DNA from: Bdellovibrionales bacterium
Lineage (GTDB): Bacteria; Bdellovibrionota; UBA1018
DNA: 64,000 bases
Assembly (NCBI GenBank): GCA_947380295.1
Contig: CANCQK010000002.1
Coordinates: 10,557 to 74,556, forward strand
Direction: 5' to 3'
The translations under genes and the position numbers were made by a program. This document shows positions 4,134 to 14,514 of the stretch, one piece after another; within the stretch, counting starts at the first letter, position 1, and every line of letters starts with the position of its first letter. The notes beneath the pieces are model-generated. The model searched no databases. It was not told the DNA's origin and saw only the letters and a program-made list of their open reading frames with translations.

Positions 4134-4898
4134 ATGAAGACTTTCCATACTCAGCAGTTAATCGGAGCCGTTGTGTTTTGTTTTTTAACTTTGCAGCTTC
4201 AGGGTTGTCTGAAGACGAGGTCTCAGCTGCGGAGTGAGTCGAGTGATGAAATGAGCGAGGCAGAGCCTTCTCGAAGGGTCGCTTCAGCTCCTCCCGTGCA
4301 GGACGTTAAACCTCAGGGTGAGTATGTCATTGAGGAGTTAAAAGACGAGATTACCCGACTTTCAGGGCATCTTGAGGAACTTGAGCATCAGCAAAAGGAG
4401 TTTCAAAAAAGCTCCCATAACGAAAAAATGGGAGATGAGCTTCGAAAACTGGAAGCCCGAATCAGTCAGCTTGAAAAGAACCAGCAGGCAATTCAGGATT
4501 CACTGGCTGAATTTCATGAAATGGCTCAATCGCATCAAGACCCAAATGAGATTTTCAAGACGGCGAAAGAACTTTTCAGCGAGGGACGTTATCAGGAAGC
4601 CGCTGATCAATTGGCGAAAGTCGAAAAAAACTCTAAGGCTAAGAACAAGGACGATGCTACTTTTTTGAGAGGTGAGTGCTTTTTCAGTCTCAAGCAATTT
4701 AAAAAAGCCGTCGTCGAGTATTCAAAATTTCCAGAAAAATATACTCATTCCAGTCACTACCCTGAAGCGCTTTACAAAATCGGACTCTCTTTTGAATCGA
4801 TGGGGATGAAAGAGGATGCAAAAGGCTTCTACCAGGAGTTAGTTGAGAAGTTTCCAAAAAGTCCCCAGGCTAAGAAAATAAGAAAAAAAGTTAAATAA
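4134..4898 (+). CDS. cpoB: CpoB/YbgF-like Tol-Pal associated protein (coiled coil plus C-terminal TPR)
   Basis: Signal peptide, a central coiled coil (LEELEHQQKEFQK...ISQLEKNQQAIQD), and a C-terminal TPR-like region (YQEAADQLAKV...ALYKIGLSFESMG). It sits after pal. Confidence 0.55.
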   Translation: MKTFHTQQLIGAVVFCFLTLQLQGCLKTRSQLRSESSDEMSEAEPSRRVASAPPVQDVKPQGEYVIEELKDEITRLSGHLEELEHQQKEFQKSSHNEKMGDELRKLEARISQLEKNQQAIQDSLAEFHEMAQSHQDPNEIFKTAKELFSEGRYQEAADQLAKVEKNSKAKNKDDATFLRGECFFSLKQFKKAVVEYSKFPEKYTHSSHYPEALYKIGLSFESMGMKEDAKGFYQELVEKFPKSPQAKKIRKKVK

Positions 4899-6461
4899 AT
4901 GAGATGCCCCAAATCGATACGGCTTTTTCTGGGGTTTTTTAGTTTCCTGATTTTATCTCAAACTAGCCTTGCGACGACCTTGGTTCACACGAATGACGTG
5001 ATGGGGGATCTAGAGCCCTGCGGGTGTCGGAGTAATCCTCAGGGCGGAATGGCTCGAAAGGCGAACCTGATCAGACGCCTGATAGATCGAGACGTGATTC
5101 AACTCGATGCCGGGGATCTTTTATTTTCAACCTTGGAAATTCCCGAACTGCTTAGGGAGCAGTCTCAGGTCCAGGCTGGGTACCTTTTACGCTCAATGGA
5201 TTTACTGAGGCACGACGCTGCGGTACCTGGCGAGAAAGATTTTTCCCTCGGATTTCGAGTTTTTGAAACACTTCGCAAAAAGACTCAGGTCCAATTTGTT
5301 GCTGCAAACTTGAAACTGCGATCAGGTCAGAAGTATTTGGAGCCGCATCTCCTGATTCATCGGGGTTTGAAAGTTGGTGTGATTGGCGTGGTCGGGGCTA
5401 AGTTGAAGTGGCCAAAAGAACTCCGGGTCACTTCGGCAATTCAGGCAGTTCGTAAAGAAATCAAGCAACTGAAAGCGAAAAAAGCTGACACCATTATTGT
5501 ATTGAGTCACCAAGGGTTTGACGACGATGTTGAATTAGCCAAGTCTGTGAGCGGGATTGATGTCATTGTCGGAGGTCACACTCAATCATTTCTTCAGACG
5601 CCTGTGCATGAGGGACGCACTCTCATTTTACAGTCTTCTTTTAAAAATCAATATGTGGGGGTCTTGCCGCTTTCTCGTCCACTTAAGGAGGAAGATTATC
5701 AACTGAAAGGTCTGGATGCTGGATATGATTCACCAGTGCAGGCTCCAAGTGAGATGGATCAGTTGGTGCGTGAATTTAAGGAAGCCATTGCACGACTCAA
5801 CTCCCTCCGAGAGATAGGCCTTCACGCCCAAACCTCCGCATCTCACCCTTCGGCGCCGGCGCGGGAGGCCTCCTATCAGACCTTTCCTCAGTGTGCTCAG
5901 TGTCATCTCAAGCAGTTTGATTTTTGGCGGAAGACCCCTCACTTTCATGCTCTGAGTGCCTTGGTGCAAAAAAATCAGGAAAGTAACAAAGAGTGTCTTC
6001 AGTGCCATACCTTGGGACTAGGAGAGGTGCGTGGGTTCAGTGCAATAGAGCAGCTGGGCGAATTTAAAAATCCAGAGGGTGTTCCAGAGAGTCAGGCTAA
6101 AAGGCTCACTGGAGCTGAATGGGCTAGTTTTTTAGATCGGGTTGCTCGGGCAAAGTCTGTGGATGATTCGATCGATGTTCCCTTTTCAGTTTCTCGTTCT
6201 GTTCCCGTCCGTCAGGCCATGCAGAGTTTAAAGAGGGTCTGGGCGCTGCCTCAGTGTGAAAGTTGCCATCAGGCCGGTGGGGAACACCCCTTTTCTGGAG
6301 CCTATTCAAAAGTCGTCCAGTCGACGGCTTGCTTGAAATGTCATACACAAGAACGGGCGCCTTCATGGTATAAGGGTGGCCAACCTGACTCTGAGCTGAT
6401 CCAGACTAAATTGAAAGCGATGACCTGCCCCGCAGGGGAGCTTTCGGAGTCGGTCGATTGA
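4899..6461 (+). CDS. secreted fusion protein: N-terminal 5'-nucleotidase/metallophosphatase-like domain with substituted metal-ligand motifs, plus a C-terminal tetra-heme cytochrome c
   Basis: Signal peptide. LVHTNDVMGD, DAGDLLF, VPGEKDF (in place of GNHEFD), LSHQGFDDD, VIVGGHTQS. Four CxxCH motifs: CAQCH, CLQCH, CESCH, CLKCH. Confidence 0.55.
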   Translation: MRCPKSIRLFLGFFSFLILSQTSLATTLVHTNDVMGDLEPCGCRSNPQGGMARKANLIRRLIDRDVIQLDAGDLLFSTLEIPELLREQSQVQAGYLLRSMDLLRHDAAVPGEKDFSLGFRVFETLRKKTQVQFVAANLKLRSGQKYLEPHLLIHRGLKVGVIGVVGAKLKWPKELRVTSAIQAVRKEIKQLKAKKADTIIVLSHQGFDDDVELAKSVSGIDVIVGGHTQSFLQTPVHEGRTLILQSSFKNQYVGVLPLSRPLKEEDYQLKGLDAGYDSPVQAPSEMDQLVREFKEAIARLNSLREIGLHAQTSASHPSAPAREASYQTFPQCAQCHLKQFDFWRKTPHFHALSALVQKNQESNKECLQCHTLGLGEVRGFSAIEQLGEFKNPEGVPESQAKRLTGAEWASFLDRVARAKSVDDSIDVPFSVSRSVPVRQAMQSLKRVWALPQCESCHQAGGEHPFSGAYSKVVQSTACLKCHTQERAPSWYKGGQPDSELIQTKLKAMTCPAGELSESVD

Positions 6462-7600: not shown

Positions 7601-8428
7601 ATGGCCACCCACGGAAGAAGAAGAGCTTTAGGACAACATTTTTTAAGAGACGTCAGCATTTGTAACCAGATTGCTGAAACGGCATTAGAACAAGCCCAGC
7701 ACTTCGGCTGTAAGAGTTTACTTGAGATCGGGCCCGGCAAGGGCGCAATCACAGTGCCGATTCTCGACCGGATGCCTACTGCTCCTTTGATCGAAAACTT
7801 CACCTTAGTGGAGAGAGATCAGAGGCTAGCTCAGGAATGGAAAGTTAAATTTCAAGAGCTCAAAGAAAAAGGTCTTTGGGTTGAGCCAGGAGACTTTCTC
7901 GAAGTTCCTCGAGAAAAGTGGATCAAGTCTGAGCCTCTTGCTGTCGTATCAAACTTACCCTACTCTGCAGGGACTGCAATTGTTGTACGACTGGCTGAGG
8001 AAACTCACAGCATCCCGGTGATGGTCTTGATGTTTCAGGCAGAGGTTGCCAAGCGCCTCATGGCTGGCCCTAGTTCTGATGGGCGCGGGAGCCTCTCGGT
8101 TTGGATTCAAAACCATTGGGATGTTAAATCCCTGGTTAAAGTTCCTCCGAGGGCATTTATTCCGCCGCCAGAAGTTCAGTCTGAAGTGGTCGTCCTCACG
8201 CGACGAGAAAAACCGTGGATCGATGTCCATGCTGTCCATGAAGGCCCCCAAATCTGGCAGGCGATTCTCAAGGCTGCTTTTGCTCATCGACGTAAAATGC
8301 TCCGCTCGACTTTTCCCTGGCCTAAGGCGCTTGAGGCTTCGGGCATTGATCCTACTCTTCGAGCCGAAGCTCTCGACTGGACTCAGTGGGAAGCTCTTTT
8401 TAGAGCAGTCCTTCTAGAGCGTAAATAG
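7601..8428 (+). CDS. rsmA: 16S rRNA (adenine1518/1519-N6)-dimethyltransferase RsmA/KsgA
   Basis: LGQHFLRD, LEIGPGKGAIT, and the SNLPY motif. Confidence 0.9.
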   Translation: MATHGRRRALGQHFLRDVSICNQIAETALEQAQHFGCKSLLEIGPGKGAITVPILDRMPTAPLIENFTLVERDQRLAQEWKVKFQELKEKGLWVEPGDFLEVPREKWIKSEPLAVVSNLPYSAGTAIVVRLAEETHSIPVMVLMFQAEVAKRLMAGPSSDGRGSLSVWIQNHWDVKSLVKVPPRAFIPPPEVQSEVVVLTRREKPWIDVHAVHEGPQIWQAILKAAFAHRRKMLRSTFPWPKALEASGIDPTLRAEALDWTQWEALFRAVLLERK

Positions 8429-8513
8429 AGTCCATCTATCTTCATTTGTTAGGCCTATTTACGTCATTTTTGCTGTTTGGGCTTTTTGGTGATAGAGATT
8501 TGTTCAAAATTTT

Positions 8514-10181
8514 ATGAAAATCCGATCTTTTTTGGGGATCTCTTCCCTTGTTTTATTGCTGGGACTGAGATCCGCCTGGGCTCAACCTGAGAGGCAGGTT
8601 GAGCATTACTCATCTCGTCCTTCCATTCAATGTGTGGCTTCTGTTTCTCATTCAGATCTTTTTGAGAAATCCTGGCCCACACTTAAACAGGCCCAGTTAG
8701 AGTTTGTCGCTCAGGTTCTAGGGCTGTACCCAAGTGATGAAATTTATTTCTTAGCTCGGGATTCGGAGCTTTTCTTTGACCTCAGCGTACTCCTCATGGG
8801 AGTAGAAGATCGGACTCAATTGAGTCGCTTGCATCTTGTCAACGTTTCTCGGTCACATCTCGGAGCCCCGTTTCTTTTTGACTACTTGGAGCAAGAAGGG
8901 GTCTCCTACGAGGGTCTTCGTTCGGGGAAACGCTATCTTTTTGTCGATACAGGATTTACTGGCTCGATTCCTAGAAAGATCCTGAAACAGTTCACTAGTC
9001 ATCTGGGTCCAGAAGTGGGGGCACAATTTCATTGCCACTTTGTGTCTTCGATGAATCCCAGAATCCCTTCATCTCGCATTTTTTTAGCGACGCTCAGCCC
9101 TGCATCCGTGGGTCATGATCCGGGGTGGATGCGGAACACTGTCTTAGAGTACGAGTATCTCCATCGATTCAACTTTCGCTCCACCGAGTACGACTGGGTA
9201 GACGAGCGGTGGGAGCCCGCGGCTCCGCGCACAGATCAGGTCGAGAATGATGGTAAGGTTTCTCGGCCCGAGGCACTTCGGTATATGGAGGATCTTAAAG
9301 CCTATTCTGAGTTGGAGTCGACTCGTGCTCTATTTCGTGCTCGTCTCCACCTTTGGCAGCAGTTGAGGGAGGCAGCGGAGAACTCCGAACAAAGCGAGTT
9401 GGTTGCGTTGCTGAAGGCCCTGCTGGTTCGGCAGGATCTCCCAGGAGAGGCCATCGTTCGAGATTTTTTGGAATGGCAGGGCAAGGTTCTGTCTATTTTT
9501 ATTGAACTGGATGAGCTGGGGCTGATGCCCGAACATAGCATGGGTCCGAGTTCAAATAAGCGCCAGCTGATCCTGAAGTGCCCTCACTGGCGATCGATCT
9601 TAGAAGATCCGATCATTGAAGTCCCAAAGATCGTCGAAAATGGTGATTTTTTGAATTTGAACCGAATTCTGGACGTCCTTGATGATGTCCAAATTCAAAA
9701 AATAATCTTTCGCGCATTGGCGGGGCCTTTTCCGACCGAAGAAATTAAATTTGAAGCTAGAAAAAGTCTCCTCGCTCGAATTGACTTAGATAAAGGCAAA
9801 GAGCGAGAATGGATCGCTTTAGAGACCTTTTCTCAGGCCAGTTCTGTTGATTTAGGTCAGGTGCTCAATCGACTCATTGATGAGGGAGACTCTCAGGTTT
9901 GGTCTATTTTAGTGCTGAACGCATTTAAAAAACCCCATTCCATTGCCTGGAAATCTGAGCTTAACCTGCTTTTAGAGGTGGCTGAACCCGTTCATTTAAT
10001 TCAAATATTTTGTCACCCTCATTCCAAGGATTGGGGGGATGAGTTGGCTACTCTGACCGAACGGTGTGATCTAAAAATTCTGGATTTTATTTGGCGGCGG
10101 GTGTTGTCCAGACCTCATTCAATCGACTGGGGAGTAGGTGTATTCCTACTGGTTGAAGAGAGAATTAAAAAGTTAAGGTAA
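8514..10181 (+). CDS. hypothetical secreted protein (555 aa)
   Basis: N-terminal signal peptide (LVLLLGLRSAWA-QPE). I recognise no known domain. Confidence 0.45.
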   Translation: MKIRSFLGISSLVLLLGLRSAWAQPERQVEHYSSRPSIQCVASVSHSDLFEKSWPTLKQAQLEFVAQVLGLYPSDEIYFLARDSELFFDLSVLLMGVEDRTQLSRLHLVNVSRSHLGAPFLFDYLEQEGVSYEGLRSGKRYLFVDTGFTGSIPRKILKQFTSHLGPEVGAQFHCHFVSSMNPRIPSSRIFLATLSPASVGHDPGWMRNTVLEYEYLHRFNFRSTEYDWVDERWEPAAPRTDQVENDGKVSRPEALRYMEDLKAYSELESTRALFRARLHLWQQLREAAENSEQSELVALLKALLVRQDLPGEAIVRDFLEWQGKVLSIFIELDELGLMPEHSMGPSSNKRQLILKCPHWRSILEDPIIEVPKIVENGDFLNLNRILDVLDDVQIQKIIFRALAGPFPTEEIKFEARKSLLARIDLDKGKEREWIALETFSQASSVDLGQVLNRLIDEGDSQVWSILVLNAFKKPHSIAWKSELNLLLEVAEPVHLIQIFCHPHSKDWGDELATLTERCDLKILDFIWRRVLSRPHSIDWGVGVFLLVEERIKKLR

Positions 10182-10222
10182 ACATCTGAGATGGGTTTAG
10201 TTCAGCATCGATCTGATCTCTG

Positions 10223-11404
10223 CTACGACCAGTAACTCCAGGGTACAACAGCGATTCCTCGTTTTGGGACTTCAATCGAGTTCACTGGCGCGACTATGAT
10301 ACCTTGTTTCGCTCCTAGTGCCTTCATAGCGCCACTCATCGCTCGCTCGTAATAGCCCATCGAACTTGTAGTTACGGCCTCAGCAATGATTCGGATCGGT
10401 ATCTCATCCCAAACTAGATCAATGACCGCCCCTTTTGCGCTCTTGAAGTAAAGCTTTTGAAGTGGCTTGCCTTGATATTCATTGAAACAGAAAATCTCAT
10501 TCAAAATCATATGTCGAGCCAAAGAGAGCAAAGTCCCAGGGCCGCTTTTTTGGCGAGCTAGGTGATATGCCAAGCCGGCATCCCCAAAAATCCAATGATC
10601 ATTCCCAACTCCTGATTCGTGACAGGTAAACCGCCTTAAGAAGAATATATCCTGAAGTGCCTGGATATATTTTTTTGCCTTGCGCTTATCACTAGAAACA
10701 TATGCCAAAGATGGATACTCTCCCTCAGGCAGCGCCTTAGCAAGCATCCTCACTAATGAGATACAATACTCCGGGTCAAATCCTCTGCCATACGCTTTCT
10801 GAGCATCCCGAGCCAAAGTCGTATCCAACCACTGATCCCAGTAGGACCCTCGAACTTGATCGTCCCGCAAAAACGCAGGCACGGGCAGTCCACCCAGATT
10901 CATTTGGAGAGATAGATCTTCTACAGAAAAGCGAAGGTTGCACTCACCTTTCAGGATTGGCCCGGCTTGATTCATCCTGAATGTCGTAGGTTTTAACTCG
11001 GCAAGGCAAAGAGGATAAAGATGCACCATCCCAATCCTGCCAGTCAGCGATTCTCGAATTCCCACTTTGTTTGAGAATGCCACAGAGCCTGATAGGAACC
11101 AGCGGCCCGGAATTTTTCTTCGATCGACCAACGCCTTAAGTGAGTCAAAAAGCACAGGCACCTTCTGCACCTCATCCAAAACCGTAGGCCCGCCTGAATG
11201 GCGTGATAGAAAAACCTTGGGGGAAAGCTCTGCCTCACTCCTGACCTCCGCATCATCAAAAGTAAGATAATTTGGGATCTGAATCCGATCTCTGAGTAGA
11301 GTGGACTTACCCACCTGCCTGAGTCCCAAAACTCCGATAATTGGCCAAAAAGAAGCCATTTTTCTTAGGTATGTTTCAGCCCATCGTTCTCTTTGGTGCG
11401 GCAT
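10223..11404 (-). CDS. AAA_14-type ATPase with C-terminal DUF4143 domain (paralogue A)
   Basis: Walker A GLRQVGKSTLL, Walker B VLDEVQ, the IRESLTGR motif, and FGDAGL in the C-terminal domain. Confidence 0.7.
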   Translation of the reverse strand: MPHQRERWAETYLRKMASFWPIIGVLGLRQVGKSTLLRDRIQIPNYLTFDDAEVRSEAELSPKVFLSRHSGGPTVLDEVQKVPVLFDSLKALVDRRKIPGRWFLSGSVAFSNKVGIRESLTGRIGMVHLYPLCLAELKPTTFRMNQAGPILKGECNLRFSVEDLSLQMNLGGLPVPAFLRDDQVRGSYWDQWLDTTLARDAQKAYGRGFDPEYCISLVRMLAKALPEGEYPSLAYVSSDKRKAKKYIQALQDIFFLRRFTCHESGVGNDHWIFGDAGLAYHLARQKSGPGTLLSLARHMILNEIFCFNEYQGKPLQKLYFKSAKGAVIDLVWDEIPIRIIAEAVTTSSMGYYERAMSGAMKALGAKQGIIVAPVNSIEVPKRGIAVVPWSYWS

Positions 11405-11566
11405 AAACCTCGCAATTCATTTTTTCGAACCCAGCACTCAGATCACTAGGAAACAAAAGGGATGTAAAACTCTAAGTGCTGCTATTTTTTCACCCAATCT
11501 TGTACTAAAAGGGTAGCACTTATCGGAGAGGTAGGCACTGTTTTTCTTTTTCAGTCTAAGTAGGTG

Positions 11567-12769
11567 TCAAATTAAGGCATTCCACGGCAATGAAGCGAGG
11601 CGGGTATGGAGTACCTTCGTTTCTTTTCCAAGATGAACGATGAGGGCGTAGCCTGATGGGTGAGCTTTTAGGAAGCTCTCTGCGCTTTTCAGCGAAGAAA
11701 GCGATGCCTGACGATCTAAAGTGGGGATAATCGCTAGGGGGCGTCCAAATGCCTGAAAAATAAGCGGTACGTAGGCGCCTCCTCGAGTCCTATAAGAGTG
11801 CGTCGAATATTGAAGACCATCAGTGTAGTGATAGCCTTCGCGAAGGTTGCAGAACAGAAAGTGCGTAAATCCTTGGAGAGTTAGAAACTCGCTGGATTGG
11901 TTAGTTAAAAACTTTGCTAGCCCTGCGTCTTCAAAATAAAATGTATCTGGAGTGGACTGCCCGAGCTGACTCATTGGACGGATTAAAAATAATGCTTCTA
12001 GTGCAGAAAAAAGCTTTTTTAAAGTGATCGTAGAAATGCCTGTTTCTCGTCTGAGTGATTCCCAATGGAGAATGGATCCTTGTGTGCGGGCTAGGGTAGA
12101 GATGAGGGCCAGAAGAGTCATTTTTGGAAGAGTAGTTTCAACGATGAGGCGCAAATCTCGATCGAGCAAAGTGTCGAGATGGGTTCTGAATTTGCTTGCT
12201 CGGTGCTGAGCGTTGCGCCCAAAACAAATTCCAGGTAGACCCCCCAGCTCAAGGTAGCGAATCATTCCACTTTCGCTTTCTGAAAGTCTTGGTTTGAGTT
12301 CTCGCGTTAGAGCGCTGAGCCCTTTTTGGTGGAGTTCGATGAGGAGTGGGTTCAACGGAAGTGAATGAGATTCAGACCAGGTCATCGGTAGTAGTTCAGT
12401 GATGAGAACTCGTCCTGTCAGTGATTCCCGAATTGCTTTCCTACTCGTAAAGCGGACTGAGCCGGTGAGCAAAAATTGACCCGGCTTCTTGTGCGTGCGT
12501 ACATAGTCTTTTAGCGCCGGGAAAAGCCGTGGCGAAAGCTGACATTCGTCAATCATGAACGGTGCAGGGCGGTTAGAAATGAAGTCATTGGGACCGCTTT
12601 CACAAAGCGTGAGGTCTTCCTCGCGATCCAAGGTTCGCATGTCCTGACTGAGGTGTTCGCAAAGAGTTGTTTTGCCGGTTTGGCGATGGCCAATTACCCC
12701 AACGATGGAAGACGCCTTGAGTGCTTGAACAACGATCGGAGTGAGATGTCTTTTTCGCTCATGGGGCAT
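11567..12769 (-). CDS. AAA_14-type ATPase with C-terminal DUF4143 domain (paralogue B)
   Basis: Walker A GHRQTGKTTL, Walker B MIDECQ, IRESLTGR, and FEDAGL. Its N-terminus MPHERKR parallels MPHQRER in paralogue A. Confidence 0.7.
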   Translation of the reverse strand: MPHERKRHLTPIVVQALKASSIVGVIGHRQTGKTTLCEHLSQDMRTLDREEDLTLCESGPNDFISNRPAPFMIDECQLSPRLFPALKDYVRTHKKPGQFLLTGSVRFTSRKAIRESLTGRVLITELLPMTWSESHSLPLNPLLIELHQKGLSALTRELKPRLSESESGMIRYLELGGLPGICFGRNAQHRASKFRTHLDTLLDRDLRLIVETTLPKMTLLALISTLARTQGSILHWESLRRETGISTITLKKLFSALEALFLIRPMSQLGQSTPDTFYFEDAGLAKFLTNQSSEFLTLQGFTHFLFCNLREGYHYTDGLQYSTHSYRTRGGAYVPLIFQAFGRPLAIIPTLDRQASLSSLKSAESFLKAHPSGYALIVHLGKETKVLHTRLASLPWNALI

Positions 12770-12789
12770 GATTAAAGTTTAACTCTAAA

Positions 12790-12843
12790 AAAGGGTTCCT
12801 GTCAAATTTGATACCCCCCTACTGAAAATGACAGGAACCCTTT
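12790..12843. repeat. perfect 15-bp inverted repeat with a 24-nt loop, just upstream of the ATPase paralogue B start and in the divergent region before the fadL-like gene
   Basis: aaagggttcctgtca at 12790-12804 and tgacaggaacccttt at 12829-12843, read directly. On the minus strand it is followed by a T-run and then the start codon at 12769. Confidence 0.5.
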
Positions 12844-13065
12844 AAACAGTGGCCTCCTCAGTGTGAATTGCGCACCTAGTCAATATTTCGGGCTGTAATG
12901 GGGCCGTTGTGCCTGGCGAGGTTACCTGTTTTGGTTGACTCGGTCCGTAAGTCGATCAGCCAGCTGACTCAGAACAGACTTGCTCCCGAGTCTGATTTGC
13001 GAAATAGTGGCTCCCTGCGTCGAACGGCCCAAAAGGGCCAGCGAGCGCGACTGGAGGGAGATCTC

Positions 13066-14514
13066 ATGGGTCTAAAAAATAGATTTTCGGGTAGGGGCCT
13101 TTTCTGTGCCTGGGCGCTTTCTGCTTTTTTTGTGCAAGGGCTGGGTCTGGGCCGTGAGGCTCAGGCTAATGTGGGTGATTTTGTAGGATTTGGGGCCCGG
13201 ACGATGGCGCTCGGTGGAGCTGGCGTAGCCGGTGATACGGGTGGTTTTGCGGCTTACCACAATCCGGCAGCTTTGGCAGGGTTGGGTAAAGAGCGGCTGA
13301 CTCTCAGCTACGGCTTGGTTTTTGTGCGGCCCCAGTTTCTGCCGATTTCCGATGTCGTGACCCAAAATGACTACGTTGCAGATTCGTCGCCGCCCCTCTC
13401 CGGCACGGTCGACACCCAGTATCGGGATACCTTCGGTCAGGTGTTGGGATTGTCCTTTGAGCTTTTGCCCGATGTAGGTCACCTCACCGTTGGATTAGTC
13501 ACCTTTTTACCTCTGAATCAGTTGGCCTATATGGATTCGGGGCAGCCCTATATTCCTGAGTATTTTCTGTATCGCTCCAGAACTCAGCGGCCTCAGGTTG
13601 AGTTAGGCGCTGGATATCAGGTTCTTCCGAGCTTACGAGTGGGGGCGGGGCTTCATACCGGATTCGGGCTGACCGGGAATGCGAGCGTCTTTATGAATAC
13701 GGCGGCCAACCGGATTTCAACGATGACCTTTGCAGCCAGTCTTAAGCCCGTTTTTTCAGGGTATGTTGGGGTTTTGTGGACACCTGGTGCTGAAGAGGGC
13801 AAGCAGGAGGGGGCCTTAAATTTAGGGCTCGTTTACCGGATGGCAGCATCCTCTGATATGGTCTTGCCTATGACTGCCTCGGCTCGGGTCTTGGGGACAA
13901 CTCCAGCCGCTGTTGATCTTATTTTTACTGCCGCATCCTCCCTCTACTACGATCCTGCTGCCTTAGAGTCTGGCGTCAGTTTCAAAACCGGTGACCATCG
14001 TTGGGTCGCTCAGGTGGATTATCAGATTTGGAGTGCTTACAAGACTGCCGCTCTGAGTATGTCCCAAGGGACTGCCACCTCGGGTGGATCGCAGGGGCTG
14101 ATTCAAATTAATCCGGGCATTCTGCCTTCTTATGTTTACTCTAACATCGTGGTGCCGCGCGCAGGTTGGGAGTGGAACTTGAACCGTGGGAATACCGTAC
14201 GATTGGGGTACTCCTACCGCCCAAGCGTCTTGAAAGAGGTTTCAAATGGAGTCGGCAATGCCTTAGATCCGTCCAAGCATCTGGTGACCGCTGGCTGGGG
14301 TTTTCATTTTGATAGTTTCTTAGGGTATTCGGTTCCCGTTCAGTTGGATCTCGCTCTGAATTACCAACAACTCATGACCCAATCCATTGCCAAGGACTCA
14401 AACGGTAATGAAGCGGGTATTACAGCCAACAGCCAGCAAAAGATTGGCTATCCGGGATATAATGCGGGTGGACGCCTCTTCGGCGGTGCTGTATCTTTAG
14501 CCTTGGCTTTTTAA
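13066..14514 (+). CDS. fadL: FadL/TodX-family outer-membrane long-chain fatty acid and hydrophobic compound transporter
   Basis: Signal peptide, then GFGARTMALGGAGVAGDTGGFAAYHNPAALA (FadL N-terminal signature). C-terminal aromatic residue. A fatty-acid CoA ligase gene lies downstream. A GGAGG Shine-Dalgarno sequence precedes the 13066 ATG. Confidence 0.7.
   Translation: MGLKNRFSGRGLFCAWALSAFFVQGLGLGREAQANVGDFVGFGARTMALGGAGVAGDTGGFAAYHNPAALAGLGKERLTLSYGLVFVRPQFLPISDVVTQNDYVADSSPPLSGTVDTQYRDTFGQVLGLSFELLPDVGHLTVGLVTFLPLNQLAYMDSGQPYIPEYFLYRSRTQRPQVELGAGYQVLPSLRVGAGLHTGFGLTGNASVFMNTAANRISTMTFAASLKPVFSGYVGVLWTPGAEEGKQEGALNLGLVYRMAASSDMVLPMTASARVLGTTPAAVDLIFTAASSLYYDPAALESGVSFKTGDHRWVAQVDYQIWSAYKTAALSMSQGTATSGGSQGLIQINPGILPSYVYSNIVVPRAGWEWNLNRGNTVRLGYSYRPSVLKEVSNGVGNALDPSKHLVTAGWGFHFDSFLGYSVPVQLDLALNYQQLMTQSIAKDSNGNEAGITANSQQKIGYPGYNAGGRLFGGAVSLALAF

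What the first reader, a model, noticed from the sequence alone, without database searches (positions are those of the whole stretch)
10223..12843. Tandem divergent paralogues of an AAA_14 ATPase fused to DUF4143, bounded by a perfect 15-bp inverted repeat: candidate uncharacterised ATP-dependent nuclease-like system
Two adjacent minus-strand genes encode paralogous proteins of about 395 aa. They share Walker A/B, the IRESLTGR motif and an F.DAGL motif, and begin with near-identical N-termini (MPHQRER / MPHERKR). They have diverged substantially, which argues for an old duplication kept as a pair rather than a recent copy.

The C-terminal DUF4143 is classed in Pfam with the PD-(D/E)xK restriction-endonuclease-like fold, so each protein is plausibly an ATPase-nuclease fusion. 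Architectures of that kind recur in anti-phage systems. As far as I know this family has no assigned function.

The pair interrupts a housekeeping stretch (rsmA ... fadL/smpB) on the opposite strand. It is separated from the neighbouring genes by 40-160-nt spacers. A perfect 15-bp stem with a 24-nt loop lies 20 nt upstream of paralogue B.
Basis: partly seen in the sequence, partly recalled or inferred. Interest (0 to 1): 0.6.

Follow-up and report, generated by a model that had tools for sequence, protein, structure and literature searches.

The report
Two nuclease-dead ATPase genes with promoter palindrome
Two neighbouring genes of a very common but untested "candidate phage-defence" ATPase family were inserted into a housekeeping stretch of a predatory bacterium; their nuclease-like domain has lost its catalytic residues, and the inverted repeat beside one gene is a family-wide palindrome over its promoter, most likely a control site.

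Summary
The two genes and the perfect 15-bp inverted repeat exist at the stated coordinates. The repeat lies on one side of gene B only, so it does not bound the pair.

Both proteins belong to the COG1373 / AAA_14-DUF4143 family, which PADLOC already lists as candidate PDC-S01. The pair sits in an accessory insertion: relatives have rsmA directly next to fadL.

It is not a retained tandem duplicate. A and B belong to two old subfamilies, and their orthologues elsewhere are single or sit with other partners.

The C-terminal domain keeps a restriction-endonuclease fold. However, B and its 245 nearest relatives examined lack the catalytic D and ExK residues, and A lacks the lysine. The ATPase motifs are invariant. 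An ATPase-nuclease reading is therefore not supported.

New here: 55 of 86 B-type genes from many Bdellovibrionota genomes carry a perfect palindrome of at least 10 bp just upstream. Its sequence differs between paralogues and is conserved between orthologues. A -10 box ends about 6 nt before the ATG, which suggests leaderless mRNA.

My best reading is single-gene ATP-switch DNA-binding proteins, with B probably autoregulated through the palindrome. Their biological role is unknown.

The parts
11567..12769 (-). Gene B, 400 aa. Layout: AAA_14 P-loop ATPase, helical domain, winged helix (residues about 216-280, nt 11930-12124), then a restriction-endonuclease-fold C-terminal domain (residues 292-400, nt 11570-11896) that lacks catalytic residues. 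Walker A is at nt 12665-12691 and Walker B at nt 12539-12559.
10223..11404 (-). Gene A, 393 aa. Same architecture as B but a different old subfamily. Walker A is at nt 11300-11326. The C-terminal domain keeps the Asp (IDLV) but has EAV in place of ExK and lacks the helix Glu. An SD-like GAGG lies 4 nt before the ATG.
   Evidence: ORF. Pfam AAA_14 E 1e-22, no DUF4143 hit. PADLOC PDC-S01 E 2e-45. 30% identity to B. Subfamily of 119 homologues at 44-97% identity with D114/E5 at the Asp position and no conserved Lys. Upstream sequence.
12790..12843 (.). Perfect 15-bp inverted repeat (arms 12790-12804 and 12829-12843, 24-nt centre containing G6). It is a partly decayed copy of the 21-bp palindrome of B orthologues. 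Proposed operator of gene B.
   Evidence: The orthologous palindrome GGGTTCCTGTCAAATTC(AATA) is kept in the 79% and 66% orthologues, which lie at unrelated loci. Family-wide association of such palindromes with B-type genes.
12776..12805 (-). Promoter-like site of B: TTGACA (12805-12800), 18-nt spacer, TAAACT (12781-12776), then 6 nt to the ATG at 12769. The -35 hexamer lies in the gene-proximal arm of the palindrome. There is no Shine-Dalgarno sequence, so a leaderless mRNA is predicted.
   Evidence: The scan gives 10 of 12 matches. In 93 family upstream regions TAnnnT ends exactly 6 nt before the ATG in 38, and 4-9 nt before it in 67, against 56 of 603 control ORFs. An SD-like 4-mer is present in 15 of 93.
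11473..11522 (.). Imperfect inverted repeat in the B-A spacer (16-nt arms, 81% complementary, 18 nt between them), 69 nt upstream of A. It contains the motif AAGTGCTAYC..TTTT, which is also found upstream of two A orthologues. Possibly A's own control element. No intrinsic terminator is predicted between B and A.
   Evidence: (repeat I9).
8429..13065 (.). Accessory segment inserted between rsmA (stop at 8428) and the fadL-like gene (start at 13066). It holds orf555, gene A, gene B and the palindrome.
   Evidence: L091 and L092 have rsmA and fadL adjacent (64-nt and 22-nt gaps). L089 and L090 have an unrelated 991-aa ORF there. Only the same-species loci L001 and L002 share the window's arrangement.
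8514..10181 (+). orf555, a 555-aa protein with an N-terminal signal-like sequence. It has no Pfam, NCBIfam or PADLOC match. It is part of the inserted segment but unrelated to the ATPase family.

Best explanation
A and B are two separately evolved single-gene units of the COG1373 / AAA_14-DUF4143 family (PADLOC candidate PDC-S01). Together with an unrelated secreted-protein ORF they occupy a variable spot between rsmA and fadL in an uncultured Bacteriovoracaceae (Bdellovibrionota) genome.

Each protein has a P-loop ATPase, a helical domain and a winged helix, a layout that resembles STAND / Orc-Cdc6-type switches. This is followed by a restriction-endonuclease-fold domain. The ATPase site is intact. 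The endonuclease site is lost completely in B and its whole clade, and is incomplete in A.

Inferred: these proteins act as ATP-dependent DNA-binding or oligomerising switches, not as nucleases.

From sequence pattern: B has its own promoter, whose -10 box ends 6 nt before the ATG (predicted leaderless mRNA), and the 15-bp inverted repeat covers the -35 and upstream region.

Shown by comparison: the repeat is one instance of a 30-50 bp, paralogue-specific palindrome that travels with B-type genes.

Inferred: the palindrome is an operator on double-stranded DNA, most likely bound by B itself through the winged helix and/or a dimer of the dead endonuclease domain, giving autorepression.

The cellular role (phage sensing, regulation or a selfish function) is not established.
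For: Family and architecture.

Catalytic residues:
- Canonical copies have EVD and ExK in 8 of 8.
- The B subfamily has Pro in 116 of 119 at the Asp position, and no Glu or Lys.
- The A subfamily has no conserved Lys.
- None of the 126 nearest 50%-identity cluster representatives has D..ExK.
- Walker A Lys, Walker B Asp-Glu and Arg120 are invariant in all 246 sequences.

Insertion and lack of a conserved pair.

Palindrome linked to the gene:
- 44 of 88 perfect inverted repeats of at least 12 bp in 1.145 Mb lie just upstream of the 113 family genes.
- 55 of 86 B-type genes have a perfect repeat of at least 10 bp, against 1 of 490 shuffles.

DNA-level, sequence-specific element rather than an RNA hairpin:
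- The -10 box lies between the palindrome and the ATG at a fixed distance.
- Some loci carry direct instead of inverted repeats of the same unit, for example L044, L056 and L070.
- It is as frequent when the upstream neighbour is divergent (23 of 33) as when it is co-directional (24 of 45).
- Mismatches in imperfect arms show no sense-strand G:U bias: 17 against 21.
- Orthologues at 66.5% protein identity share a 30-nt exact word while the flanking intergenic DNA has diverged.
- Six loci of one MAG (CAITVN01) carry six different arm sequences.
Against: - No binding, transcription-start or expression data exist. The autoregulation step is inference only.
- The palindrome's distance to the ATG varies from 0 to 69 nt, and about a third of B-type genes lack a perfect repeat of at least 10 bp.
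- Perfect stems of 15-25 bp are longer and cleaner than typical operators. This could point to a hairpin or cruciform function, or to a mechanism that regenerates perfect palindromes.
- In the window and its 98% relative the distal arm is decaying, so the element may be under relaxed constraint here.
- The palindrome is less clear for A-type genes (3 of 7).
- Loss of the canonical motif does not strictly exclude a relocated active site.
Confidence: 0.5

Rival explanations
1. One reading: the pair is an ATP-dependent nuclease system that defends against phages, an active PDC-S01-type effector.
For: - Both proteins match PADLOC PDC-S01 over their full length.
- The family was nominated because members are embedded in BREX, DISARM and type I RM loci (bioRxiv 10.1101/2024.01.29.577857).
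- The C-terminal domain has a restriction-endonuclease fold.
- The locus is an accessory insertion.
- The STAND-like layout recalls Avs and NLR immune switches.
- Nuclease-intact family copies exist in the same MAG, for example L024 291-1461.
Against: - Catalytic E, D and ExK are absent in B and its whole clade, and incomplete in A.
- 131 ORFs flanking family genes show no enrichment of defence or mobile-element families.
- There are at least 8-12 scattered copies per genome.
- The one PDC-S01 representative tested gave no protection against T4, T5 or T7 (bioRxiv 10.1101/2024.09.26.614923).
- The pair is not conserved as a pair.
Confidence: 0.15
2. The inverted repeat works as an RNA hairpin: a 5' UTR regulator, an attenuator, or a terminator or insulator that stops read-through into the gene.
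For: - As RNA the stem folds strongly, and the 15-bp helix dominates the minimum-free-energy and centroid structures.
- On the gene strand the stem is followed by a T-run (CCCTTTTTT).
- Stems differ in sequence between paralogues while complementarity is kept.
Against: - The whole 141-nt region is not significantly more stable than shuffles (z -1.78).
- The loop is 24 nt, and the stems elsewhere are AT-rich, unlike intrinsic terminators. The terminator scan does not call it.
- The conserved -10 box lies downstream of the repeat, 6 nt from the ATG, so the main transcript would not contain it.
- It is equally frequent with divergent upstream neighbours.
- Direct-repeat variants exist.
- Arm sequence, not only pairing, is conserved between orthologues.
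- There is no G:U bias on the sense strand.
- There is no Rfam match.
Confidence: 0.12
3. Gene plus palindrome is a mobile cassette. The palindrome would be a recombination or hairpin site recognised by the encoded protein or by a host enzyme, which would explain the scattered copies in many genomes.
For: - Gene and palindrome move together: the 79% and 66% orthologues carry the same palindrome at unrelated loci.
- There are many copies per genome, inserted between housekeeping genes.
- The centre of the palindrome is flipped between orthologues: L082 has GGGGGG and L085 has CCCCCC, and a 30-nt word is shared in reverse orientation.
- Canonical relatives have an intact nuclease.
Against: - Copies within one genome are only 40-50% identical, so there is no sign of recent transposition.
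- The repeat lies on one side only, and no target duplications or second end were found.
- No integrase or transposase enrichment is seen next to the genes.
- The nuclease of this clade is dead.
- The arm is unique within the window.
Confidence: 0.1
4. The pair is a conserved core-genome duplicate with a housekeeping role at this position.
For: The flanking genes are housekeeping genes.
Against: Relatives have rsmA directly next to fadL, or a different gene between them. None of 79 other loci holding B homologues shares the neighbourhood.
Confidence: 0.01

Closest known systems
PADLOC phage-defence candidate PDC-S01 (COG1373; Pfam AAA_14 PF13173 + DUF4143 PF13635)
   Same: Full-length HMM matches (E 2e-45 and 5e-53). 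Same domain order: ATPase, winged helix, PD-(D/E)xK-fold domain. Single-gene units, accessory, often several per genome.
   Different: The B clade has lost all catalytic residues of the PD-(D/E)xK domain, and A has lost the lysine. These copies are not next to defence genes. Most B-type genes carry a paralogue-specific palindrome over their promoter (55 of 86) and a -10 box at leaderless spacing (67 of 93 family upstream regions). PDC-S01 itself has no demonstrated function, and one tested member was negative.
STAND NTPases and related archaeal Walker ATPases (PF01637: PDB 2qen, 2fna; CED-4; NB-ARC NLRs; Avs)
   Different: There is no repeat-type sensor domain (TPR, LRR or WD40). The proteins are only about 400 aa. 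The effector-like domain is C-terminal and is inactive here. Sequence identity is only 12-18%.
Autoregulated DNA-binding AAA+ proteins with cognate repeats beside their own gene (DnaA boxes at dnaA; Orc1/Cdc6 and ORB inverted repeats)
   Different: There is no AT-rich unwinding element, and the centre is a short G/C run. There are at least 8-12 copies scattered per chromosome, so these are not origins. Binding has not been shown.
Catalytically inactive restriction-endonuclease-fold domains used for binding (for example TBP-interacting protein TIP26, PDB 2czr)
   Different: There is no sequence relationship. The partner of this domain (DNA or protein) is unknown.

Membership tests
Pfam AAA_14 (PF13173) P-loop ATPase | HMM score above the gathering threshold (27 bits); Walker A GxxGxGK[ST] and Walker B hhhDE | tested here: met
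   A scores 80.8 bits and B 66.7 bits. G32, K33, D74 and E75 are invariant in all 246 sequences, and position 34 is T or S in all but two.
Pfam DUF4143 (PF13635) | HMM score above the gathering threshold (28.1 bits) | tested here: not met
   B scores 21.7 bits and A has no hit. Many homologues at 40-47% identity do pass, and the domain aligns with canonical copies. This is a divergent member, not an unrelated domain.
PADLOC PDC-S01 | Full-length match to a PDC-S01 HMM | tested here: met
   Model PDLC04790: A 153 bits (residues 3-373) and B 178 bits (residues 4-399).
PD-(D/E)xK nuclease | Restriction-endonuclease-like alpha-beta-beta-beta-alpha-beta fold | tested here: met
PD-(D/E)xK nuclease | Catalytic Asp at the start of strand 2 and (D/E)xK in strand 3, plus the helix Glu | tested here: not met
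   Canonical copies have E, D and ExK in 8 of 8. The B subfamily has R/H, P (116 of 119), I/L/V and I/T/S. The A subfamily has R, D, V/I/T and no conserved K. Window A reads IDLV...AEAV.
Anti-phage defence system | Genomic association with known defence genes (defence island) | tested here: not met
   131 flanking ORFs from the family loci show mixed housekeeping families and no defence enrichment. The window's neighbours are tsaD, rsmA, fadL, smpB, acs, rpoZ, ppx, ppk and lon.
Anti-phage defence system | Protection against phage when expressed | not testable with these tools
   The only literature test of a PDC-S01 member was negative for T4, T5 and T7 (bioRxiv 10.1101/2024.09.26.614923).
STAND NTPase | NBD-HD-WHD core followed or preceded by sensor repeats and an effector domain | tested here: inconclusive
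Conserved two-gene operon (paired paralogues) | Orthologues of A and B adjacent in other genomes | tested here: not met
   Adjacency is seen only in the same species (L001, L002). Orthologues are single or have other partners.
Intrinsic terminator or known RNA motif | GC-rich stem, 3-8 nt loop and a U-tract; or an Rfam match | tested here: not met
   The terminator scan does not call it. Rfam gives only a chance miRNA-like hit at 20.7 bits against a gathering score of 67.
Transposable element or integron cassette | Terminal repeats at both ends, target duplication, transposase or integrase, near-identical copies | tested here: not met
   The palindrome lies on one side only. The arm is unique in the window. 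Flanking ORFs show no transposase or integrase enrichment. Intragenomic copies are 40-50% identical.

The most novel reading that the evidence does not exclude
The nuclease-dead AAA_14-DUF4143 clade may be an expanded set (at least 8-12 per genome) of orthogonal ATP-driven DNA-binding switches in predatory Bdellovibrionota. Each would recognise its own 30-50 bp palindrome through the winged helix and a dimeric dead restriction-enzyme domain. That would be a previously undescribed class of self-specified regulator or selfish gene-plus-site module. It would also mean that a sizeable share of 'PDC-S01 defence systems' counted in defensome surveys are not nucleases and perhaps not defence genes at all.
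Probability: 0.2. Interest if true: 0.65.

Novelty: new variant of a known kind. Interest (0 to 1): 0.42.

Why it matters
PDC-S01 is reported as one of the most frequent 'defence systems' in bacteria and archaea, yet it has no demonstrated activity. This locus shows that a whole clade scoring as PDC-S01 has a dead nuclease domain. The clade comprises at least 120 clusters at 50% identity and is centred on Bdellovibrionota. Its members lie outside defence islands and occur many times per genome. Defensome counts based on these HMMs should therefore be read with care.

The gene-linked, paralogue-specific palindrome and the leaderless-type promoter give a concrete, testable handle on what these proteins bind and how they are controlled. 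Suitable tests are binding assays, reporter fusions and transcript 5' end mapping.

Tried and rejected
- NCBIfam scan of A and B: no family.
- PDB sequence search with B: nothing meaningful.
- Literature searches for DUF4143, COG1373 and AAA_14/PF13173 returned no functional study. They yielded only the PD-(D/E)xK classification (PMC3424549) and the PDC-S01 surveys.
- Metagenome scan with the fadL-like protein for empty sites: no confirmed relative. The question was answered instead through a protein search plus context look-ups.
These are chance hits, so the scan says nothing about a regulon.
- Rfam and tRNA scans of the region: nothing.
- Phage collection: only 4 weak hits in uncultured contigs, so this is not a phage gene.
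- Direct repeats flanking the pair that could be target duplications: only short chance matches.
- orf555 against the 991-aa ORF at the same junction in a relative: unrelated.
- Terminator-of-the-upstream-gene idea: rejected, because the palindrome is as frequent with divergent neighbours.
- A statistical test of co-variation between winged-helix residues and arm sequence was considered. It was not run, because about 60 loci with strong phylogenetic structure are too few.
Full report
**Observation**

The window holds two minus-strand ORFs: A (10223-11404, 393 aa) and B (11567-12769, 400 aa). They align end to end at 30% identity (E 2e-38).

Both match Pfam AAA_14. DUF4143 is sub-threshold in B (21.7 against 28.1 bits) and undetected in A.

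The perfect 15-bp inverted repeat is real: arms 12790-12804 and 12829-12843, a 24-nt centre, and 20 nt to the ATG of B. It is not a pair of terminal repeats, because both arms lie upstream of B. The arm sequence is unique in the 64-kb window.

**Source organism and family**

The same contig occurs in a public run (L001). A 98% relative is a freshwater Bacteriovoracaceae MAG (L002).

Both proteins match the PADLOC model PDC-S01 over their full length (E 2e-45 and 5e-53). PDC-S01 is a single-gene candidate. It was nominated because members are embedded in BREX, DISARM and RM loci (bioRxiv 10.1101/2024.01.29.577857). It has been described as an ATPase fused to a PD-(D/E)xK domain and as the fourth most common 'defence' in prokaryotes (PMC12988326). 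One member was tested without effect against T4, T5 or T7 (bioRxiv 10.1101/2024.09.26.614923). DUF4143/COG1373 was placed in the PD-(D/E)xK superfamily in 2012 (PMC3424549). The family is therefore known but uncharacterised.

**The pair lies in an insertion**

Homologues of the adjacent fadL-like gene sit in the same housekeeping block in relatives.
- In L091 (70% identity) and L092 (51%), tsaD-rsmA-fadL-smpB are contiguous, with 64-nt and 22-nt gaps between rsmA and fadL.
- In L089 and L090 (69%), a 991-aa ankyrin-like ORF occupies the junction. It is unrelated to the window's orf555.

Window 8429-13065 is thus a variable insertion at a hotspot between rsmA and fadL.

**It is not a retained tandem duplicate**

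- Of 80 genome loci with B homologues, only the same-species locus shares the neighbourhood.
- The 79% orthologue of B is single. The 66% orthologue sits behind a different, nuclease-intact copy.
- Of A's orthologues, the 73% one is single, the 66% one lies at a contig end with no family gene in the 5 kb upstream, and the 63% one is in another cluster of family copies.
- B is closer to copies on other contigs of the same MAG (50, 45 and 43%) than to A (30%).
- Each subfamily has its own graded series of relatives.
- MAGs hold at least 8 (the window's species) to at least 12 copies. These are lower bounds.
- The 131 ORFs flanking family genes are a mix of housekeeping families, with no defence or mobile-element enrichment.

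**Structure and active sites**

The C-terminal 109 residues were modelled alone (pLDDT 94.5). They match restriction-endonuclease-fold proteins: Cap4 and Can2 at 8.4, McrC at 8.1, NucS and NgoMIV at 7.9, and Hjc at 6.2.

I aligned A, B, 119 homologues of each and 8 distant family copies found in the loci. The results are below.

| Position | Canonical copies (8) | B subfamily (119) | A subfamily (119) |
|---|---|---|---|
| Helix Glu | E in 8 | R/H | R |
| Strand-2 Asp | D in 8 (as EVD) | Pro in 116 | D in 114, E in 5 |
| Strand-3 Glu | E in 8 | I/L/V | V/I/T |
| Strand-3 Lys | K in 8 | I/T/S | no conserved Lys |

Window A reads IDLV...AEAV. Among the 126 nearest full-length representatives in a library of 1.84 billion proteins, none has D..ExK.

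Walker A Lys, Walker B Asp-Glu and Arg120 are invariant in all 246 sequences. The fold is therefore kept, the ATPase is kept, and the nuclease chemistry is lost.

**The palindrome belongs to the gene family**

- In 98 upstream regions of family genes, 62 have a perfect inverted repeat of at least 10 bp and 29 have at least 15 bp (up to 25 bp). Shuffles reach 10 bp in 1 of 490.
- Of 88 perfect repeats of at least 12 bp in 1.145 Mb of loci, 44 lie just upstream of the 113 family genes.
- By subfamily, a perfect repeat of at least 10 bp is present in 55 of 86 B-type genes, 3 of 7 A-type genes and 6 of 18 distant copies.
- The elements share a plan: AT-rich arms with TGTAAAA or TGTCAAA followed by GGAAA-like inner arms, and a centre with a run of 4-7 G or C. 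Their exact sequence differs between paralogues.
- Six loci of one MAG carry six different arm sequences.
- Some loci have direct instead of inverted repeats of the unit (L044, L056, L058, L070).
- Orthologues keep the sequence. The window, its 79% orthologue and its 66% orthologue share GGGTTCCTGTCA(AATTC) at unrelated loci. The last two share a 30-nt exact word in opposite orientation, so the half-site plus centre is flipped.
- In the window the inner part of the distal arm has decayed, leaving 15 bp of an ancestral 21 bp.
- Among six plasmid-borne distant homologues, those of Azotobacter and Pseudomonas have a 12-bp palindrome abutting the ATG. One from Neorhizobium has three direct repeats. 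The theme may therefore extend beyond Bdellovibrionota, but the sample is small.

**Promoter**

In 93 family upstream regions, TAnnnT ends exactly 6 nt before the ATG in 38 and 4-9 nt before it in 67. The figure for control ORFs is 56 of 603. TGn often precedes the hexamer. An SD-like 4-mer is present in only 15 of 93.

Window B has TTGACA, an 18-nt spacer, TAAACT, then 6 nt to the ATG. The -35 hexamer lies in the proximal arm. This predicts a leaderless mRNA and places the palindrome at about -22 to -75, which is operator territory.

The palindrome is as frequent when the upstream neighbour is divergent (23 of 33) as when it is co-directional (24 of 45). It is therefore not that neighbour's terminator. 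Mismatches in imperfect arms show no sense-strand wobble bias (17 G:T against 21 C:A, out of 82). Rfam finds nothing.

**Gene A**

A has an SD-like GAGG. It also has an imperfect inverted repeat (11473-11522) containing a motif shared with two A orthologues. No terminator is predicted between B and A. Whether A is co-transcribed with B remains open.

**Interpretation**

Shown:
- the family membership;
- the insertion;
- the absence of a conserved pair;
- the retained fold with lost catalytic residues and an intact ATPase;
- the linkage of the palindrome to the gene, and its sequence conservation.

Predicted from sequence pattern:
- the leaderless-type promoter, whose geometry is conserved across the family; no transcript data exist.

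Inferred:
- the proteins are ATP-switch DNA-binding or oligomerising proteins;
- the palindrome is an operator on double-stranded DNA, probably bound by B itself.

Unknown: the biological role.

The active-nuclease defence reading, the RNA-hairpin reading and the mobile-cassette reading are less likely, for the reasons listed under rival explanations.

**Verdict**

It is wrong on the nuclease and on the 'kept pair'. The locus is an ordinary member of a very common candidate family. It does reveal a nuclease-dead, multi-copy clade with a distinctive promoter palindrome, which is worth a modest follow-up.

Noticed in passing
window 8429-13065; L089 4895-7870; L091 7937-8001; L092 7979-8001: The rsmA|fadL junction is a variable hotspot in Bacteriovoracaceae. 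It is empty in two relatives, holds a 991-aa ankyrin-like ORF in another, and holds orf555 + A + B in the window.
   Followed up: yes
window 8514-10181 (+): orf555 is a 555-aa protein with a signal-like N-terminus and no Pfam, NCBIfam or PADLOC match. It evolves fast: 89% identity in the MAG where B is 98% identical.
   Followed up: partly
L082 about 9940-9990 versus L085 about 2935-2975: The centre of the orthologous palindrome is inverted between lineages (AATAGGGGGGTATT versus AATACCCCCCTATC). A 30-nt half-site plus centre is identical in opposite orientation. A second case is L047 (ctcccca) versus L049 (ggggg), which have the same arms. This suggests flipping of the segment between the arms.
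   Followed up: partly
L044, L056, L058, L070, L003 (copy at 14449), L030 (copy at 4702): 110 nt upstream of family genes: Some family genes carry two direct copies of a 20-30 nt unit that includes the -10-proximal sequence, in place of a palindrome.
   Followed up: partly
window 11473-11522; L099 about 4890-4915; L100 about 4895-4915: A-type genes share an upstream motif AAGTGCTAYC(A/C)TTTT. In the window it forms an imperfect inverted repeat in the B-A spacer.
   Followed up: partly
L094 1455-1491 and L096 about 1437-1473 (Azotobacter and Pseudomonas mendocina plasmids): Distant plasmid-borne family members have a palindrome GGTGTAATTTCA-N13-TGAAATTACACC that directly abuts the ATG. In L098 (Neorhizobium) three direct repeats of ATCCGAATTGGACGG-like units precede the gene.
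   Followed up: partly
L027 4879-4956; L042 9024-9111: Very long perfect inverted repeats (33 bp and 37 bp stems) lie in intergenic DNA of two Bdellovibrionota MAGs. They are not next to family genes.
   Followed up: no
all B-type and A-type proteins, residues 1-7: The N-terminus M-(P/A)-H-x-R-x-R is nearly invariant across both subfamilies. Its role is unknown; it could concern the protein or the start of a leaderless mRNA.
   Followed up: no
protein P0173: A 699-aa database protein combines RrnaAD (rsmA) and fadL-type domains. It is most likely a gene-call fusion that reflects the ancestral rsmA-fadL adjacency.
   Followed up: no
L087 6565-7108; L088 449-992; L099 7189-7919: Toxin-antitoxin-like pairs (BrnT/CopG, PhdYeFM-like) lie within a few kb of some family copies. 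No general enrichment was seen among the immediate neighbours.
   Followed up: partly
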